This document shows positions 63 to 5,638 of a DNA stretch of 5,638 nucleotides, in pieces. Position 1 is the first letter of the stretch, and every line of letters starts with the position of its first letter. The stretch is from a virus (Duplodnaviria; Heunggongvirae; Uroviricota; Caudoviricetes): the IMG/VR virus record IMGVR_UViG_3300029079_000073, one strand, 5' to 3'. Under the pieces are notes generated by a model. The model was not told the origin of the DNA. It ran no database searches and saw only the letters and a list, made by a program, of their open reading frames with translations. The translations under genes were made by a program, and so were the position numbers.

Positions 63-282
63 CAGCTAACTCCTTCAGGTATTTTGCATCGAGTGCAGCA
101 ACATCACGCTGGCGTATCTGCATGTCAGTAATGATTGCGGTCGCCTGGTTGAGTTTTTCCTTCACATTATCGCGTTGCGCTTTGTAGGTAATGGCATTAT
201 CACGGTAATGATTAACAGCCCATGACAGGCAGACGATGATGCAGATAACCAGAGCGGAGATAATCGCGGTTACTCTGTTCAT
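1..282 (-). CDS. rzpD: Rz i-spanin (inner-membrane spanin subunit), N-terminal 94 codons; 3' end beyond the window
   Basis: Hand translation of the minus strand from ATG 282..280 gives [94 protein letters not shown] with no stop to position 1; near-identical to recalled lambda Rz. The start overlaps the R stop (ATGA, 282..279). Not in the ORF track, presumably because it runs off the window edge. Confidence 0.85.
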
Positions 283-776
283 TGCTGACCCCACAAACAG
301 ATTTCACGCTCAATCTCACGACGAGTCATGAGACCTTTCCATTGCTTACCGCCAGCATATGTCCAGCGACGTAGCTGATCACATGCGCCTTTGATATCGC
401 CCTGGTTTATTTTGCGAAGAAGCGTCGATGTTCTGAAATTGCCAGCGCCCACGTTGTAAACGAACGAGTAAAGAGCGCCGCGCGTTGTTTCCGGTATATC
501 AACTTTTATGTACGGGTTAATTTGTCTGGCGACCGTGGCAAGGTCTTTATTCAGGAGGGCTTTGCATTCTGCTTTGGTATACGTTTTACCGAGCATGATG
601 TCTTTTCCTGTATGCCCGTGACATACAGTCCATACACCAACAATATCTTTGTATGGTATGTAGCTGACACCTTCCAGACCATCGTTACCACTTGGGCCAG
701 TGATTAACACTGATGCTATAGCAATTGCTCCGCCACCAATAGCAGCAGCAACGGCTTTTCGTAATGATGGAGGCAT
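279..776 (-). CDS. rrrD: SAR endolysin (phage 21 R-type, T4-lysozyme-like muramidase)
   Basis: 165-aa ORF. N-terminus is a Gly/Ala-rich weakly hydrophobic segment ([20 protein letters not shown]) typical of a signal-arrest-release domain. Glu35, Asp44 and Thr50 are present in the E-x8-D-x5-T spacing of the lysozyme triad. SD-like GAGGTG lies upstream of ATG 776..774. The start overlaps the holin stop (TAATG). Confidence 0.93.
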
Positions 777-991
777 TATTCACCTCTCGCAGCCTTGCGC
801 TTATCTTCTTTAATCTTGAAATAAAGGTTTGTCAGGTACGTCAGCAGGCCAAATACCAGGCTACCCAGCACACCTATTGCTGCCCACTGTGAGGGCGTGA
901 CTTTATCGAGCAGCTGTAAAAACCAGTAACCGGCACTACCTGCTGAGGTGCCATAGGCGACACCCGTTGTTAACTTATCCATGGATTTCAT
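776..991 (-). CDS. essD: Class II holin / pinholin (S21-type) with dual-start motif
   Basis: ORF track gives 776..1036 (86 aa), but the internal start MKSMDKL at 991..989 is preceded by GAGGTGG and yields the 71-aa size of phage-21 S. Met1-Lys2-Ser3-Met4 is the classic antiholin/holin dual start. Two predicted TM segments ([12 protein letters not shown]; [17 protein letters not shown]) and a charged C-tail [13 protein letters not shown]. Confidence 0.88.
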
Positions 992-1239
992 AACCCCACC
1001 TCGCAGACAAAGCGGGTGTAAATTGAGGGAATACAACGTATCGCAAAAAAGCAGAAACGTAACAGACTCGGAGTCAGTGAATAACTCAGGTATTGAGTTA
1101 TCAGCTAATATCGAGACTCAAAAAATGGAAAAACCAGCTCGACGGCGGGTTTAAGCTGTGTGACGAAGTAACCACTCTTAACAGCATAACCAATTTTTTA
1201 CGTACGTAAACCACTGAATGATATTTATGAGAATGCTAC

Positions 1240-1579
1240 CGAGTGTTCAAAACACCACCACAAATATATAAGAAAACCTCAACAAATAACCAATAAATAA
1301 TTTCCGGCGTTATTTTTAGTTGATTTAAATTAAACCACCGAATTATAGAACCCCCATAAATAACAGCCATTAATATAAATTAGCTAATAGGTTTATTTTT
1401 GTTCAAATAAGAGCCATAAATAGGTTTCGATAGAAAAAGTTCAGATAAAAATAGAGATCTACTTCACAAATTAAATGAGAAACTAAAACTTACATCTTGA
1501 AATAATCACATTGATTAGATGAATATTTATCGCGCAGTGACATCATTTTTTAATAATAGTTCAAAAAAAAGGGCTCACG
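1240..1579 (+). promoter_or_regulatory. Strongly AT-rich upstream region of the porin gene (promoter / nucleoid-protein binding region); boundaries approximate
   Basis: Visibly AT-dominated sequence with A/T tracts and short direct repeats (CCATAAATA at about 1364 and 1413; ATAGGTTT at about 1387 and 1419), directly 5' of the porin start. A weak SD (AAGGG) precedes ATG 1580. No single -35/-10 pair could be assigned with confidence. Confidence 0.35.
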
Positions 1580-2662
1580 ATGAAAAAATTAACAGTGGCA
1601 ATTTCTGCTGTAGCTGCATCAGTACTGATGGCGATGTCTGCTCAGGCAGCTGAAATTTATAATAAAGACAGTAACAAGCTGGATCTGTACGGGAAAGTTA
1701 ATGCCAAGCACTACTTTTCCTCTAACGATGCAGATGATGGTGATACTACTTATGCCCGTCTTGGCTTCAAAGGTGAAACCCAAATCAACGATCAACTGAC
1801 TGGTTTCGGTCAGTGGGAATATGAATTCAAAGGCAACCGCGCTGAATCTCAAGGTTCCTCCAAAGACAAAACCCGTCTTGCATTTGCAGGCCTGAAATTC
1901 GGTGACTACGGCTCAATCGATTACGGCCGTAACTACGGTGTAGCATACGACATCGGTGCGTGGACTGACGTTCTGCCAGAATTCGGTGGCGATACCTGGA
2001 CCCAAACAGATGTGTTCATGACTGGTCGCACCACTGGTGTTGCAACCTATCGTAACAACGACTTCTTTGGTCTGGTCGATGGCCTGAACTTTGCTGCTCA
2101 GTATCAGGGTAAAAATGACCGCACTGACGTAACTGAAGCCAATGGTGATGGTTTCGGTTTCTCCACTACTTATGAGTATGAAGGATTCGGCGTGGGTGCA
2201 ACCTATGCTAAATCAGATCGCACTGACGGTCAGGTCGCCTATGGTAAGAGCAAATTCAATGCCTCCGGCAAAAATGCGGAAGTATGGGCTGCAGGCCTGA
2301 AATATGATGCGAACAATATCTATCTGGCTACCACATATTCTGAAACTCAGAATATGACCGTTTTTGGTAATAACCATATTGCAAACAAAGCACAAAACTT
2401 TGAAGCAGTAGCACAATATCAGTTTGACTTCGGTCTGCGACCATCTGTTGCTTACCTTCAGTCAAAAGGTAAAGACCTTGGTGTTCATGGTGACCGAGAC
2501 TTAGTCAAGTATGTCGATGTCGGTGCTACTTACTACTTTAATAAAAACATGTCCACTTTTGTTGATTACAAAATCAACTTAATTGACGATAGTAAGTTTA
2601 CCAAAACAGCTGGTATTGATACCGACGACATCGTCGCTGTAGGTCTGGTGTATCAGTTCTAA
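1580..2662 (+). CDS. nmpC: General diffusion porin of the OmpC/OmpF/PhoE family, NmpC/Lc (prophage-borne) type; intact
   Basis: 360-aa ORF with a signal peptide ([23 protein letters not shown], then AEIYNKD). Porin hallmarks: the conserved start of the mature protein [15 protein letters not shown], Gly/Tyr/Asp-rich beta-strand pattern, and a C-terminal Phe (VGLVYQF). Position between Q and S on the opposite strand matches nmpC in DLP12 and lc in phage PA-2. Confidence 0.92.
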
Positions 2663-2670
2663 TCTGATTA

Positions 2671-2712
2671 CGAAAAAGATATGTTGCGGGAGGCTTTGCC
2701 TCCCCAACATAT
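2671..2712 (-). terminator. Candidate intrinsic terminator for minus-strand transcripts (possible tR'-like terminator of a short late leader)
   Basis: Imperfect inverted repeat ATATGTTG(C)GGGAGGC / GCCTCCCCAACATAT at 2679..2712 with a 3-nt loop. Read on the minus strand it is followed directly by CTTTTTCG (2678..2671). Confidence 0.4.
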
Positions 2713-2800
2713 AAGTGGCTCCCTCAAGCCACTTCCTTTAGAAGCACAACCTTGCTTCTAACTATATAAACCTTCTGTTATATATTACCCTTTATTTTTG

Positions 2801-2826
2801 GGGGCGTCTCAACGCCCCATTTTTAA
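2801..2826 (+). terminator. Rho-independent terminator of the porin gene
   Basis: GC-rich stem GGGGCGT (2801..2807), loop CTCA, ACGCCCC (2812..2818), followed by ATTTTTAATAATTTTT. Lies about 140 nt after the porin stop. Two further short perfect hairpins sit between (AAGTGGCT/AGCCACTT at 2713..2734; GAAGCA/TGCTTC at 2741..2758). Confidence 0.6.
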
Positions 2827-2851: not shown

Positions 2852-3067
2852 TTAATTAGAGTTATTAACAACGATATCCATCTCTAACCGGATATCTAAT
2901 GCCATTAACATCCCTTCAATTATGCCCTCAGCCTTCTGTAACCTTTTCCCGATATAACCATCAGAGCAGCAATGCTTACCTGCCAGTGACATGAATGTCA
3001 TACCGACTACATAATAATCTACTAATAAATCGTGCAAATCGCTGTTGTTCTTTTTCAGACGGGCCAT
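2852..3067 (-). pseudogene. quuD: Late antiterminator Q (QuuD / Q21-family) remnant: C-terminal 71 codons only, 5'-truncated
   Basis: 71-aa ORF ([71 protein letters not shown]) matches the C-terminal half of the ~127-aa DLP12 QuuD as I recall it. An in-frame TGA lies 10 codons upstream (3097..3095) and the intervening codons (LPRCEDACY) are rusA sequence read in another frame. No SD before ATG 3067. Confidence 0.7.
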
Positions 3068-3381
3068 GTAACAGGCATCTTCACAACGCGGTAATCAACG
3101 ACCAGCTCATCATCCAGCCAGAAACCTGCTTTAGTGAGTGCGTCAAAAGCGGCTTTTTGCAGATTATCCAGGTCACGGCGACGGCGATCCGGCATGTGGC
3201 ACTCAATGCGGATTTTCACAGGCATAGCCAGGCCGATATCCAGCATTGCGTTTTTAATGATTCGGGCGACGTTATCGCGGTATGCCTGCCCCTCTGCGCT
3301 GACGTGCGTGCGCCCGCGATTATGGCGGTAATAGCGATTATTGCTCGGAGGCCAGGGTAATGTGATGCTGTAGGTATTCAC
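3055..3381 (-). CDS. rusA: Holliday-junction resolvase RusA (108 aa; C-terminus differs from the canonical 120-aa protein)
   Basis: Translation [91 protein letters not shown]... matches recalled E. coli RusA through about residue 105, then ends WPV-stop. GTG start at 3381..3379 overlaps the ybcO stop (GTGA). Confidence 0.9.
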
Positions 3382-3668
3382 GCCTTAATAACCCCCTCTT
3401 TCAGCCAGATAACCTGTGTTCTCGCCATACCTTCCAGCGCGCATTCTTTTGCATATGCAGCATCGACAAAATGTGTGCGGCGGTCGATTTCGTCGTGGCA
3501 GGCAGAACATGCAATGGTGGCAATCAGGTCTGGCGGTTTGGTACCGGTGCCGCACAATCCAGTCAGCCGGATATGTGCCAGTACAGACGTTTCAGGGTTG
3601 CCATTACATACGCCAGGGATTCTTACCTGGCATTCCCGACCACGCGCTGCTTTTCTCAAATCAGCCAT
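3378..3668 (-). CDS. ybcO: YbcO-like prophage protein (Cys-rich, putative zinc-binding nuclease; DUF1364-type)
   Basis: ORF track gives 3378..3707 (109 aa). The internal start [23 protein letters not shown]... at 3668..3666 is preceded by AAGGAGG with a 5-nt spacer and gives the 96-aa size I recall for DLP12 YbcO. Contains C-x7-C and C-x2-C motifs. Overlaps the stop of the upstream P/NinE ORF by 8 nt. Confidence 0.85.
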
Positions 3669-4371
3669 GATTCCTCCTTGCTGCCAGTCGCAACCATTTT
3701 TTATCAACCAGGCTGGCGGTATATCCGAGCAGTGTTGGTATTTCGGATGGTTTCAGCTCAGGCTTACGCTTACGACGATTTGGTACTCTGTAGATGTGTC
3801 CGTTCATGACACGAATACCGCCCATAACAGGAAGTTGTTTTACTGGTTCAGGTATCGTCTCACCACGGTTAATTCGCGCTGTCATACAGGTCAGTTCATC
3901 GGCAGCCTTGCGCCGTAATTCCGCGTCAGTCAGCGCATTGGCCCGCATGTTCTGGTACAAGTTGGTAACCAACCAGTAATGCGCGTTCGATTTCCACGGA
4001 TAAGACTCTGCATCCGGATACAGGCCACGCTTCCGGCAATACTCGTAAACCATATCAACCAGCTCGCTGACGTTTGGCAGCCCGGCGTTAACAGATGCTT
4101 CTTCCCGGCACCAGGCGACAAACTGCCCGGGTGATGGCAGGAATGGTCGATTCTGCCGACGGGCTACGCGCATTCCAGCGTTAACCTGTTCCATTGTGGT
4201 GATCCCGTTTTCCCGGAAAGCCAGAACCCACTGGCGGCGGATTTCGTTCAGTTCATTCTGGTCACGGTTAGCCAGGCTCGCCGGGAAAGTTGCCAGTAAC
4301 TGGCTGAACACACCGTTGATGATCTGCGCTACCTGCTGTACAGGCAACACGTAAAGATCCAACCAAGCCAA
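3661..4371 (-). CDS. Chimeric ORF: replication protein P (lambda P-like, lacking both termini) fused in frame to NinE; probably a deletion product
   Basis: Residues 11 to about 185 (VQQVAQIINGVFSQLLATFPASLANRDQNE...EPVKQLPVMGG) are near-identical to recalled lambda P residues about 33..207. The C-terminal about 50 residues ([51 protein letters not shown]) resemble NinE. The first 10 codons (TTG start at 4371, then AWLDLYVLP) are unrelated to P; SD AAGGAG sits only 3 nt before the TTG. Confidence 0.75.
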   Translation of the reverse strand: MAWLDLYVLPVQQVAQIINGVFSQLLATFPASLANRDQNELNEIRRQWVLAFRENGITTMEQVNAGMRVARRQNRPFLPSPGQFVAWCREEASVNAGLPNVSELVDMVYEYCRKRGLYPDAESYPWKSNAHYWLVTNLYQNMRANALTDAELRRKAADELTCMTARINRGETIPEPVKQLPVMGGIRVMNGHIYRVPNRRKRKPELKPSEIPTLLGYTASLVDKKWLRLAARRNHG

Positions 4372-4474: not shown

Positions 4475-5638
4475 ATGTCACTCTTCCGCAGAAATGAAAT
4501 ATGGTATGCCTCGTATTCGCTCCCGGGCGGGAAACGAATTAAGGAATCTCTTGGCACAAAGGACAAGCGGCAAGCTCAGGAGTTGCACGACAAGCGAAAA
4601 GCAGAACTCTGGCGAGTAGAAAAGCTAGGGGATTTACCTGATGTCACTTTTGAAGAGGCCTGCCTAAGATGGCTTGAGGAAAAAGCTGATAAAAAATCTC
4701 TCGATTCAGATAAAAGCCGGATTGAGTTCTGGCTTGAACATTTTGAGGGTATAAGGCTTAAAGATATCTCGGAGGCAAAGATTTACTCTGCTGTAAGCAG
4801 AATGCATAACAGAAAGACGAAAGAAATATGGAAACAGAAAGTTCAGGCCGCCATCAGGAAAGGTAAAGAACCGCCTGTTTATGAACCAAAGCCAGTATCA
4901 ACTCAGACAAAGGCAAAGCATCTTGCCATGATAAAGGCCATTCTCCGTGCTGCAGAACGCGACTGGAAGTGGCTGGAAAAAGCGCCTGTCATCAAGATAC
5001 CAGCGGTCAGAAACAAGCGAGTCAGATGGCTGGAAAAGGAGGAAGCAAAACGCCTTATTGATGAGTGCCCCGAACCACTGAAATCTGTCGTCAAGTTTGC
5101 GCTGGCAACTGGTCTGAGAAAGTCGAACATCATAAATCTGGAATGGCAACAAATCGACATGCAGCGACGAGTTGCCTGGGTGAATCCAGAAGAGAGCAAA
5201 TCAAACCGCGCCATTGGTGTGGCGCTGAACGATACCGCCTGTAAAGTGTTGCGTGATCAAATAGGCAAGCATCACAAATGGGTGTTTGTACATACCAAGG
5301 CGGCTAAGCGAGCAGATGGAACATCAACGCCTGCGGTCAGGAAGATGCGCATCGACAGCAAGACATCATGGCTATCAGCTTGTCGTCGTGCAGGAATTGA
5401 AGATTTCCGTTTCCATGACCTCAGACACACCTGGGCAAGCTGGCTGATTCAGTCAGGCGTCCCATTATCAGTGCTTCAGGAAATGGGCGGATGGGAGTCC
5501 ATAGAAATGGTTCGTAGGTATGCTCACCTTGCGCCTAATCATTTGACAGAGCATGCGAGGAAAATAGACGACATTTTTGGTGATAATGTCCCAAATATGT
5601 CCCACTCTGGAATTATGGAGGATATAAAGAAGGCGTAA
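4475..5638 (+). CDS. intD: Tyrosine recombinase / phage integrase (DLP12 IntD, P21-family)
   Basis: 387-aa ORF with N-terminal arm-binding-like region and a C-terminal catalytic domain carrying tyrosine-recombinase signatures (ATGLRKSN box I region; [10 protein letters not shown] and VRRYAHL with the catalytic Tyr). Matches my recollection of E. coli IntD. SD GAGGAAAG precedes the ATG. The stop is the last codon of the window. Confidence 0.95.

What the first reader, a model, noticed from the sequence alone, without database searches (positions are those of the whole stretch)
1580..2662. Intact prophage-borne porin (moron) antisense to the late operon
An OmpC/OmpF-family porin with its own AT-rich upstream region and terminator sits between Q and S on the opposite strand, the position of nmpC in DLP12 and lc in phage PA-2. 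In E. coli K-12 nmpC is disrupted by IS5, whereas this copy is full length with signal peptide and C-terminal Phe. Prophage porins can change outer-membrane permeability and phage receptor availability (lysogenic conversion). Any Q-dependent late transcript would have to run antisense through this gene, which allows mutual interference.
Basis: partly seen in the sequence, partly recalled or inferred. Interest (0 to 1): 0.5.

Follow-up and report, generated by a model that had tools for sequence, protein, structure and literature searches.

The report
Intact NmpC porin in shrunken DLP12
This is an intact copy of the well-known prophage porin gene nmpC, with its known regulatory RNA tail ipeX, inside a heavily deleted DLP12 prophage of E. 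coli; it is common and already described, so it is ordinary.

Summary
Window 1580..2662 (+) is an uninterrupted 360-codon OmpC/OmpF-family porin gene with a signal peptide, a PEFGG constriction loop and a C-terminal Phe.

It is more than "like" nmpC. It is the nmpC locus of the DLP12 cryptic prophage at tRNA argU, here reduced to about 6 kb. The protein is 91% identical to the K-12 NmpC fragment. It is 100% identical to the porin carried by isolated lambdoid phages such as Perceval, ev017, 2G7b and PhiR11_1. A full-length relative of the gene is present in 2503 of 5426 complete E. coli genomes.

The promoter region matches the K-12 nmpC promoter, which was shown to be active. The "terminator" closes a 163-nt structured 3'UTR that differs by one loop base from K-12. 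This is the published ipeX RNA, which lowers OmpC and OmpF.

The antisense-interference idea is weak for this locus:
- Q is only a 71-codon C-terminal remnant, left by a 438-bp deletion.
- A published sigma-E-dependent start site for the lysis genes maps between the porin and the holin.
- Viable phages carry the same layout.

Verdict: already known, low interest.

The parts
1580..2662 (+). Intact nmpC-type porin gene (360 aa precursor; identical to RefSeq WP_000737271.1)
   Evidence: ORF found. Pfam Porin_1 E 1.9e-151 over the full model. NCBIfam OmpC subfamily match above its cut-off. 91% identical to the K-12 NmpC fragment. 100% identical to the porin of 13 phage records. Identical to the annotated protein in L001.
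1580..1648 (+). Signal peptide coding part ([23 protein letters not shown], cleavage before AEIYNK)
   Evidence: The alignment with OmpC and OmpF puts AQA|AE in register with their ANA|AE cleavage sites. PDB OmpC chains, which hold the mature protein, start matching at residue 24.
1497..1534 (+). Probable nmpC promoter PnmpC: -35 TTGAAA at 1497-1502, -10 GAATAT/AATATT at 1521-1527, start at G1532 or G1534
   Evidence: The element positions are my inference from the sequence. The region 1480-1579 is identical to K-12 apart from one A in an A-run. In K-12 a sigma-70 promoter within 199 bp of the start codon was shown to be active by deletion and 5'RACE, with a start at a 'G' (PMC11677980). The tool's own promoter scan did not call this site.
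1530..1563 (-). Sigma-E-type promoter and start site of the lysis cassette (TGAACTA-N15-GTCACT, start at about A1530), divergent from the porin promoter and overlapping it
   Evidence: PMC7918800 states that its amplicon covers -121 to +650 of the SRRz start site of Rueggeberg 2015. The forward primer from the supplement maps to 1652..1633 on the - strand. In K-12 the amplicon is 771 bp, which puts +1 49 nt upstream of the nmpC ATG. The match to the sigma-E consensus is my reading of the sequence.
1037..1579 (.). AT-rich intergenic region between holin and porin (GC 0.32)
   Evidence: Composition. Conserved at 92-100% in 83 related loci. Phages without the porin share only the part from about 1002 leftwards. 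SfII and POCJ13 share about 997-1210 at 74%.
2663..2825 (+). Structured 3'UTR of the porin mRNA, identified as ipeX; intrinsic terminator at 2801-2824
   Evidence: Terminator found. The fold has four hairpins plus the terminator: -62.9 kcal/mol, z -9.07, and 0 of 200 shuffles fold as well. There is one base difference from K-12 DLP12, in a loop. The region is 93-100% conserved in 84 loci. ipeX is described as a 167-nt RNA of DLP12 made as part of the porin transcript, which represses ompC and ompF (PMC12197685; PMC5069750).
2672..2812 (-). Candidate late promoter unit pR'-tR' next to the Q remnant. Low confidence. Elements: -35 TTGAGA 2812-2807; -10 TAATAT 2787-2782; -10-like TATAGT 2766-2761; hairpin 2712-2679 followed by CUUUUU
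   Evidence: Inference from the sequence and from the - strand fold (z -6.8). The spacer is 19 nt here and 18 nt in the commonest phage variant. The promoter/terminator scan did not call it. A related Q in phage 1H12 is followed by a clearer promoter plus terminator.
2852..3067 (-). quuD (antiterminator Q) remnant: C-terminal 71 codons only
   Evidence: Pfam Phage_antitermQ positions 57-118 of 118. Annotated as a pseudogene missing its N-terminus in L001. The full gene is 127-128 codons in K-12 and in the phages.
3068..3068 (.). Deletion junction: 438 bp of K-12 DLP12 are missing (rusA 3' end, ylcG, quuD 5' half and its upstream region)
   Evidence: blastn of the window against K-12: window 2621-3068 matches L002 11571-11124, and window 3068-3817 matches L002 10685-9936.
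776..991 (-). essD holin (phage 21 type), first gene of the lysis cassette
   Evidence: Pfam Phage_holin_2_1 E 3.5e-35. Annotated as essD in L001.
279..776 (-). rrrD endolysin
   Evidence: Pfam Phage_lysozyme E 1.3e-45. Annotated as rrrD.

Best explanation
The feature is an intact allele of nmpC, the lambdoid-phage porin gene known as lc in PA-2 and often labelled ompD. It lies in a strongly deleted DLP12 cryptic prophage at argU of E. coli.

**Shown here**
- The gene is full length and has every sequence hallmark of a 16-strand general porin.
- Its promoter region and its 3'UTR are essentially the same as in K-12.
- The identical protein is carried by viable lambdoid phages in the same Q-porin-S slot.

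**Taken from the literature**
- The K-12 nmpC promoter is active and is described as CRP-activated and OmpR/IHF/MprA-repressed.
- The identical porin of prophage Perceval is expressed in the lysogen.
- nmpC rises at 37 C in CFT073.
- The 3'UTR, ipeX, is made as part of the porin transcript and lowers OmpC and OmpF.

**Inferred**
- In this strain the gene is transcribed from its own sigma-70 promoter (start near 1532-1534).
- The precursor is exported and cleaved after AQA, then forms a trimeric outer-membrane pore.
- The ipeX tail of the same mRNA reduces host OmpC/OmpF, so the cell partly swaps its major porins for the phage one.
- The swap changes permeability and the set of receptors offered to phages and colicins. 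This is classical lysogenic conversion, kept after the prophage decayed.
- The half of the protein that carries external loops L4-L8 is the diverged part (65-79% nucleotide identity to K-12, against 95-99% for the 5' part). That fits exchange of surface-exposed alleles.
- Q-driven antisense transcription is not a working part of this locus, because Q is a remnant.
For: - **Gene and family:**. Constriction residues K39, R60, R99, R150, D130 and E134 fall in columns invariant with OmpC and OmpF.
- **Locus identity:** the full window matches six E. coli chromosomes at 99.5%, between rzpD/iss and intD/tRNA-Arg. Colinear pieces match K-12 DLP12.
- **Allele:** 91% identical to K-12 NmpC. 100% identical to the porin of phages 2G7b, ev207, ev017, Perceval and the PhiR phages, with the same gene order. 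100% nucleotide identity to the IS1-split copy in the strain AS19-RrmA-.
- **Frequency:** 2503 of 5426 complete genomes hold at least 80% of the gene in one place.
- **Promoter:** identity with K-12, activity and regulators from PMC11677980.
- **Expression of the identical protein in a lysogen:** PMC9928086.
- **Thermoregulation:** PMC12890032.
- **ipeX:**
- **Mosaic divergence:**
- **Q remnant:**
Against: - No expression data exist for the strain the window comes from. Historically nmpC was called a 'quiescent' porin gene (title of Prilipov 1998, cited in PMC3333887).
- The promoter elements I name are weak matches, and the scan tool did not call them.
- The primary ipeX paper (Castillo-Keller 2006) is not held, so the identification rests on secondary descriptions plus near-identity to K-12.
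- The mechanism by which ipeX acts is itself unsettled in the literature.
- The receptor and permeability consequences are inferred from the family, not tested.
Confidence: 0.88

Rival explanations
1. The gene is intact but silent in this strain. It would be a quiescent porin gene held off by nucleoid proteins or repressors on its AT-rich upstream DNA, with no effect on the cell envelope until a mutation or a special condition turns it on.
For: - The upstream region has 32% GC, typical of xenogeneically silenced DNA.
- nmpC was described as a quiescent porin gene (title cited).
- OmpR, IHF and MprA are listed as repressors.
- The scan tool finds no strong sigma-70 promoter.
Against: - The same promoter sequence gives a detectable transcript in K-12 by 5'RACE, and its deletion has a phenotype.
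- The identical porin of Perceval is transcribed 10-fold above local background in an LF82 lysogen.
- CFT073 nmpC copies are up at 37 C at both RNA and protein level.
Confidence: 0.15
2. One reading: Q-antiterminated late transcription from next to Q runs antisense through the porin gene. Convergent transcription then makes porin and late-gene expression interfere with each other as a functional switch at this locus.
For: - In all characterised lambdoid phages the late promoter lies directly after Q (established knowledge).
- A weak promoter-like site, a -10-like pause element and a terminator-like hairpin can be read on the - strand at 2812-2672.
- A related Q in phage 1H12 is followed by a clear promoter and terminator, then an antisense cargo gene.
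- Phage 434B grows with the DLP12 Q-nmpC::IS5-S segment.
Against: - Q here lacks its N-terminal 56 codons and its upstream region, so no Q is made from this locus.
- The lysis cassette has a mapped start at about 1530, downstream of the porin gene in the late direction.
- The candidate pR' has a 19-nt spacer and was not called by the scan.
- No transcript data are available.
Confidence: 0.07
3. It is a chromosomal core porin (an ompC paralogue, as the RefSeq label 'ompC: porin OmpC' suggests) rather than phage cargo.
For: - PGAP names it 'porin OmpC'.
- It passes the NCBIfam OmpC subfamily cut-off.
Against: - It is only 66% identical to K-12 OmpC.
- It lies between phage Q and S genes inside DLP12 at argU.
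- It occurs with 100% identity in 13 isolated phage genomes and in 80 viral contigs.
Confidence: 0.01

Closest known systems
nmpC of cryptic prophage DLP12 (qsr') in E. coli K-12
   Same: - Same chromosomal locus (argU/intD side of DLP12) and same orientation between quuD and essD.
- Same promoter region, identical over 1480-1579 apart from one A.
- Same 3'UTR, with one base different.
- 91% protein identity, and the first 148 residues are identical.
   Different: - The K-12 copy is split by IS5 after codon 346; this one is uninterrupted.
- The 3' half of the gene (external loops L4-L8) is only 65-79% identical at the DNA level.
- The surrounding prophage is much smaller here. There is no xis/exo remnant, IS3, emrE, ybcK-ybcN or ylcG, and Q is truncated.
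Porin morons of viable lambdoid phages (Perceval of LF82, ev017, ev207, 2G7b, PhiR11_1; historically Lc of PA-2)
   Same: - 100% identical protein.
- Same Q(-) porin(+) S R Rz(-) bor(+) order.
- Same flanking non-coding regions at 93-100%.
- Documented as expressed in the lysogen for Perceval.
   Different: - Those phages have a complete Q, ylcG and rusA and a full late operon. Here the element cannot make Q or virions.
- The comparison with PA-2 Lc rests on my knowledge of the literature; its sequence was not retrieved.
ipeX small RNA (3'UTR of nmpC/lc)
   Same: - Position directly after the porin stop codon, ending at the porin terminator.
- Length about 163 nt, against the published 167 nt.
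- One loop base different from K-12.
   Different: - Nothing detectable differs.
- Rfam has no family for it, so the identification is by position and by sequence identity to K-12 DLP12.
OmpC / OmpF / PhoE general porins (solved structures 2J1N, 2OMF, 1PHO and others)
   Same: - 62-66% identity.
- Full-length match and conserved constriction residues.
- PEFGG loop 3 and a C-terminal Phe.
   Different: - Phage-borne rather than a core gene.
- Different external loops.
- Fails the PhoE and OmpF equivalog cut-offs.
E. coli B nmpC (IS1-disrupted), as recalled from the literature
   Same: The coding sequence is 100% identical at the nucleotide level to the copy in strain AS19-RrmA-. I take that strain to be a B derivative from my own knowledge; the record does not say so.
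   Different: That copy is interrupted by IS1; this one is not.

Membership tests
General bacterial porin family (Pfam Porin_1; OmpC/OmpF/PhoE) | Full-length match to the family profile above the curated cut-off | tested here: met
   Porin_1 positions 1-337/337, 504.7 bits against a cut-off of 23.7. PDB OmpC chains match at E 6e-137 over residues 24-360.
General bacterial porin family (Pfam Porin_1; OmpC/OmpF/PhoE) | Cleavable Sec signal peptide with an AXA site before the mature AE(I/V)YNK N-terminus | tested here: met
   [23 protein letters not shown]|AEIYNK aligns with the OmpC/OmpF ANA|AE sites. Mature PDB chains start matching at residue 24. No dedicated signal-peptide predictor was available.
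General bacterial porin family (Pfam Porin_1; OmpC/OmpF/PhoE) | Constriction zone: basic cluster (OmpF K16, R42, R82, R132) facing acidic loop-3 residues (D113, E117) and the PEFGG motif | tested here: met
   K39, R60, R99, R150, D130, E134 and P133-G137 are invariant columns in the alignment with OmpC and OmpF. The OmpF residue numbers come from my knowledge of the structure.
General bacterial porin family (Pfam Porin_1; OmpC/OmpF/PhoE) | C-terminal aromatic residue (Phe) needed for outer-membrane assembly | tested here: met
   The protein ends ...VGLVYQF.
General bacterial porin family (Pfam Porin_1; OmpC/OmpF/PhoE) | Forms a trimeric diffusion pore in the outer membrane | not testable with these tools
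   Needs biochemistry. Inferred from 62-66% identity to solved trimeric porins.
NmpC/Lc prophage porin module of lambdoid phages | Located between the Q antiterminator gene and the S holin gene, on the opposite strand | tested here: met
   The order is essD (-) | porin (+) | quuD remnant (-). The order is the same in K-12 and in phages. Q is truncated here.
NmpC/Lc prophage porin module of lambdoid phages | High identity to the reference NmpC | tested here: met
   91% identity over 346 aa with K-12 NmpC. 100% with phage-borne copies labelled NmpC/OmpD.
NmpC/Lc prophage porin module of lambdoid phages | ipeX-containing 3'UTR between stop codon and terminator | tested here: met
   A 163-nt UTR with one mismatch to K-12, strongly structured. 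Descriptions of ipeX.
NmpC/Lc prophage porin module of lambdoid phages | Expressed in the lysogen from its own promoter | not testable with these tools
   The promoter region is identical to the K-12 PnmpC that was shown to be active. The identical gene is expressed in Perceval lysogens. There are no data for this strain.
DLP12 cryptic prophage | Integrated at tRNA-Arg argU with intD adjacent | tested here: met
   intD lies at 4475-5638. In L001, which is identical outside window 63-196, the tRNA-Arg follows 15 bp later, then fimZ. K-12 has the same arrangement.
Functional Q-dependent late transcription unit | Complete Q antiterminator gene | tested here: not met
   Only 71 C-terminal codons remain (Pfam positions 57-118 of 118). 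The deletion junction is at 3068 and the gene is annotated as a pseudogene.
Functional Q-dependent late transcription unit | Late promoter with Q-binding and pause elements followed by a terminator, directly after Q | tested here: inconclusive
   A weak candidate lies at 2812-2672 on the - strand. The scan did not call it. QuuD is only distantly related to Q21 (E 4e-8), so known Q-binding sequences cannot be transferred.

The most novel reading that the evidence does not exclude
Two pieces of regulatory geometry at this module appear not to have been described, as far as I could find.

1. The ipeX 3'UTR (+ strand, 2663-2825) and a possible short constitutive late-promoter RNA (- strand, about 2776 to 2672) would be almost fully complementary. 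The phage late promoter could then titrate or process the RNA that represses host porins, or the reverse.
2. The porin promoter (start near 1532-1534, +) and the sigma-E lysis-cassette promoter (start near 1530, -) start within a few base pairs of each other. Each has its -10 and -35 elements inside the other's transcribed leader, so they should exclude each other. That would give an envelope-stress-controlled choice between porin synthesis and lysis-gene expression.

Both points are inferences from sequence plus one indirectly mapped start site.
Probability: 0.12. Interest if true: 0.45.

Novelty: already known. Interest (0 to 1): 0.1.

Why it matters
For annotation, the gene should be called nmpC (phage porin), not ompC. 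It should be read together with its ipeX tail.

A strain with an intact copy may show lower OmpC/OmpF and a different porin at the surface. That bears on antibiotic permeability, on phage and colicin susceptibility, and on the reported link between NmpC and heat resistance.

It also illustrates how a decaying prophage keeps its cargo gene while losing its own regulators. None of this is new biology.

Tried and rejected
- **Rfam** scan of the whole window at E up to 1 found nothing, so ipeX cannot be confirmed by a curated model.
- **The promoter/terminator scan** called no promoter upstream of the porin and no - strand site next to Q. The elements I name are manual readings.
- **Primary papers not held:** Prilipov 1998, Castillo-Keller 2006 and Toba 2011. 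Rueggeberg 2013 and 2015 turned up in no search and were not requested by identifier. I used secondary descriptions and a primer table instead.
- **Literature searches that failed:** the search for 'phage PA-2' with porin and ompC returned nothing. The first literature search was swamped by unrelated meanings of IPEX and NMPC.
- **Transfer of the Q21 binding element:** I tried to locate the late promoter this way, but QuuD is only a distant relative of Q21 (E 4e-8).
- **Alignment of the DNA after Q** in phages 1H12 and POCJ13 with the window gave only a shared 9-mer (ATATAACAG) at different relative positions. This is probably chance.
- **Covariation in the 3'UTR:** variants differ at too few positions, mostly in loops or at helix ends, so the structure rests on thermodynamics alone.
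- **RybB and MicC pairing** with the 5' part of the mRNA is not better than shuffled controls (8% and 12% of shuffles reach the observed energy). However, the RybB 5' end GCCACUG has a perfect complement at 1594-1600, and nmpC is reported as a RybB target.
- **Large-database searches skipped:** I did not run the protein searches or structure prediction. Identity to known proteins and solved structures made them unnecessary.

Full report
**Observation**

The window has an ATG-to-TAA reading frame of 360 codons at exactly 1580..2662 on the + strand.
- It matches the Pfam porin model end to end (E 1.9e-151).
- It passes the NCBIfam OmpC subfamily cut-off but fails the PhoE and OmpF equivalog cut-offs.
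- It matches solved OmpC, OmpK36, PhoE and OmpF chains from residue 24 to the last residue.

In an alignment with K-12 OmpC (66% identity) and OmpF (62%), several features are conserved:
- The signal-peptide cleavage site AQA|AEIYNK is in register.
- The PEFGG loop is present.
- The residues equivalent to OmpF K16, R42, R82, R132, D113 and E117 are invariant.
- The chain ends in Phe.

The DNA upstream (1037-1579) has 32% GC, against 44% for the gene. A terminator-like hairpin with a T-run lies at 2801-2824. The described object is therefore real and far beyond chance.

**What the locus is**

The whole window matches six E. coli chromosomes over its full length at 99.5%. In one of them the order is cusS, a vgrG fragment, iss/bor, rzpD, rrrD, essD, the porin, a quuD pseudogene, rusA, ybcO, ninE, a P fragment, intD, tRNA-Arg, fimZ. 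That is the site of cryptic prophage DLP12 in K-12.

The window is identical to that genome outside positions 63-196, and the porin equals RefSeq protein WP_000737271.1.

Compared with K-12, the element has been cut down:
- Window 3068-3817 matches rusA-ybcO-ninE.
- Window 3816-4047 matches the peaD (P) remnant.
- Window 4380-5638 matches xisD/intD.
- The K-12 segment with IS3, emrE and ybcK to ybcN is absent.
- 438 bp are missing at position 3068. That deletion removes the end of rusA, all of ylcG and the first 56 codons of quuD.

So 'Q' is only a 71-codon C-terminal remnant (Pfam positions 57-118 of 118).

**The porin allele**

It is 91% identical to the K-12 NmpC fragment. The first 148 residues are identical, and the differences sit in the indel-rich segments of the OmpC/OmpF alignment, which correspond to external loops.

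At the DNA level the gene is a mosaic:
- 95-99% identity to K-12 over 1580-2000.
- 65-79% over 2100-2600.
- 98.7% again from the last 40 bases of the gene through the 3'UTR into quuD.

The same protein, at 100% identity, is encoded by 13 records of isolated lambdoid phages, including 2G7b, ev207, ev017, Perceval and several PhiR phages induced from ECOR strains. It is also encoded by 80 of 80 retrieved viral contigs. In those phages the order is Q, porin on the opposite strand, S, R, Rz, bor.

In complete E. coli genomes, 2503 of 5426 hold at least 80% of the gene in one place, and 617 records match at 99% or more. The strain AS19-RrmA- has a 100% nucleotide-identical copy split by IS1. K-12 has its own allele split by IS5. 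The laboratory phage 434B carries the K-12 Q-nmpC::IS5-S segment and is a viable phage.

**Regulatory parts: promoter**

The 100 bases before the start codon are the same as in K-12 and in the phages, apart from the length of one A-run.

For K-12, a recent study showed that the 199 bp upstream contain a sigma-70 promoter. It is active in glycerol medium, starts at a 'G', and is described as CRP-activated and OmpR/IHF/MprA-repressed (PMC11677980).

From the sequence I place it at TTGAAA (1497-1502) and GAATAT/AATATT (1521-1527), with a start at G1532 or G1534. This placement is my inference, and the scan tool did not call it.

**Regulatory parts: 3'UTR**

The stretch from the stop codon to the terminator is 163 nt. 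It folds into four hairpins plus the terminator, with a z-score of -9.07. It differs from K-12 by one loop base and is 93-100% conserved in 84 loci.

This is where ipeX lies. ipeX is a 167-nt RNA of DLP12, made as part of the porin transcript, that represses ompC and ompF (PMC12197685; PMC5069750; PMC3333887). Rfam has no model for it.

**Expression**

No data exist for the source strain. Indirect support comes from three places:
- The identical porin of prophage Perceval is transcribed 10-fold above local background in LF82 lysogens (PMC9928086).
- nmpC copies of CFT073 rise at 37 C at RNA and protein level, and NmpC has been linked to heat resistance (PMC12890032).
- The K-12 promoter is active (above).

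nmpC mRNA is also reported as a RybB target. The RybB 5' end has a perfect 7-base complement at 1594-1600, but the predicted duplex is not better than shuffled controls.

**The antisense claim**

Three points weaken it for this locus.
1. No Q can be made here.
2. The lysis genes have their own mapped start.
   - PMC7918800 cloned '-121 to +650' of the start site determined by Rueggeberg 2015.
   - Its forward primer maps to 1652..1633 on the - strand.
   - In K-12 the amplicon is 771 bp, which puts +1 49 nt upstream of the nmpC ATG. That is about 1530 in the window.
   - Just upstream on that strand is TGAACTA-N15-GTCACT, a good match to the sigma-E consensus. This fits the title of that study.
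   - Transcription of essD-rrrD-rzpD therefore need not cross the porin gene.
3. The same layout exists in viable phages, so any interference is compatible with phage growth.

Where the Q-responsive late promoter lies remains open. By analogy with other lambdoid phages it should follow Q. On the - strand I can read:
- TTGAGA (2812-2807), then a 19-nt spacer, then TAATAT (2787-2782).
- A -10-like TATAGT (2766-2761).
- A long hairpin (2712-2679) followed by CUUUUU.

This candidate is weak. It was not called by the scan and could not be checked against a known Q-binding element, because QuuD is only distantly related to Q21.

A related Q in phage 1H12 is followed by a clearer promoter and terminator and then an antisense lipocalin gene. 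POCJ13 has stx in that slot, and 434B has lpxR just upstream of the Q gene. The region around Q and S is thus a general cargo slot.

**Mechanism, with status of each step**
- Shown: the intact gene, the family hallmarks, conserved promoter and ipeX sequences, and identity to phage-borne copies.
- From the literature: promoter activity and regulators, expression in lysogens, and ipeX repression of OmpC/OmpF.
- Inferred: in this strain the porin is made and inserted as a trimer; its mRNA tail lowers host porins; the net effect is a changed permeability and receptor profile; the diverged loop half reflects exchange of surface alleles.

**Comparison and novelty**

This is the DLP12 nmpC locus with an uninterrupted allele that is also common in phages. 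Everything in the finding that holds up is already in the literature, and the part that would be new (functional antisense interference) is not supported here.

Two geometric details seem undescribed, as far as I could find, but rest on inference:
- The near-coincident divergent starts of the porin and sigma-E promoters.
- The possible full complementarity of ipeX with a short late-promoter RNA.

I rate interest at 0.1 and novelty as already known.

Noticed in passing
window 3055-3381 (-) and junction at 3068: rusA is fused by the 438-bp deletion to out-of-frame quuD sequence. The product is 108 aa (…MPVTWPV*) instead of 120 aa, so it loses the last 15 residues of RusA. RefSeq still annotates it as an intact rusA.
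   Followed up: partly
window 3661-4371 (-): One long ORF joins a lambda P replication-protein fragment (Pfam positions 1-162 of 162, but lacking the lambda N-terminus) in frame to NinE (NCBIfam positions 6-56 of 56). The junction is near 3816/3817. The whole ren-to-ybcN segment of K-12 DLP12 (IS3, emrE, ybcK, ybcL, ybcM, ybcN) is absent.
   Followed up: partly
window 63-196 (inside rzpD/rzoD): All 24 mismatches and the one shifted single-base indel between the window and its best genome match fall in this 134-bp patch. The other roughly 5,500 bases are identical. K-12 is also only 71% identical over 101-200. This looks like a short recombination patch in the spanin genes.
   Followed up: no
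window 1530-1563 (-): A sigma-E-type promoter (TGAACTA-N15-GTCACT) lies 6 nt before the lysis-cassette start site inferred from published primers. Its start is only 2-4 bp from the inferred porin start on the other strand, so the two promoters overlap completely.
   Followed up: partly
window 2672-2812 (-): The reverse strand of the ipeX region reads as a possible short promoter-to-terminator unit of about 105 nt. That RNA would be antisense to most of ipeX.
   Followed up: partly
window 997-1210; L087 3993-4073: The part of the holin leader nearest the holin is 74% similar to untranslated DNA in Shigella phages SfII and POCJ13 (in POCJ13, between Q and stx). The AT-rich part from about 1210 to 1579 occurs only together with the porin. 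This suggests the porin cargo unit spans roughly 1210 to 2830.
   Followed up: partly
L086 3367-3891; L085 1810-2769: Other lambdoid phages carry different outer-membrane cargo on the opposite strand near Q. Phage 1H12 has a Blc lipocalin directly after Q. Phage 434B has an LpxR lipid A deacylase just upstream of its Q gene.
   Followed up: no
L001 6437-7789 (outside the window, left side): Next to the remnant lie iss (a bor homologue, serum survival) and a truncated vgrG/tssI gene. So the left end of DLP12 is also deleted in this lineage.
   Followed up: no
H56, NZ_CP027430.1 953999-955858: The strain AS19-RrmA- carries a copy of this exact porin allele (100% nucleotide identity) split by IS1. 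The allele has thus been inactivated independently, by a different insertion sequence than in K-12.
   Followed up: no
window 1236-1370 (-): A 44-codon ORF lies in the AT-rich leader between the porin and the holin. Some phage records annotate hypothetical proteins in this stretch. There is no family match and it is probably not a gene.
   Followed up: no
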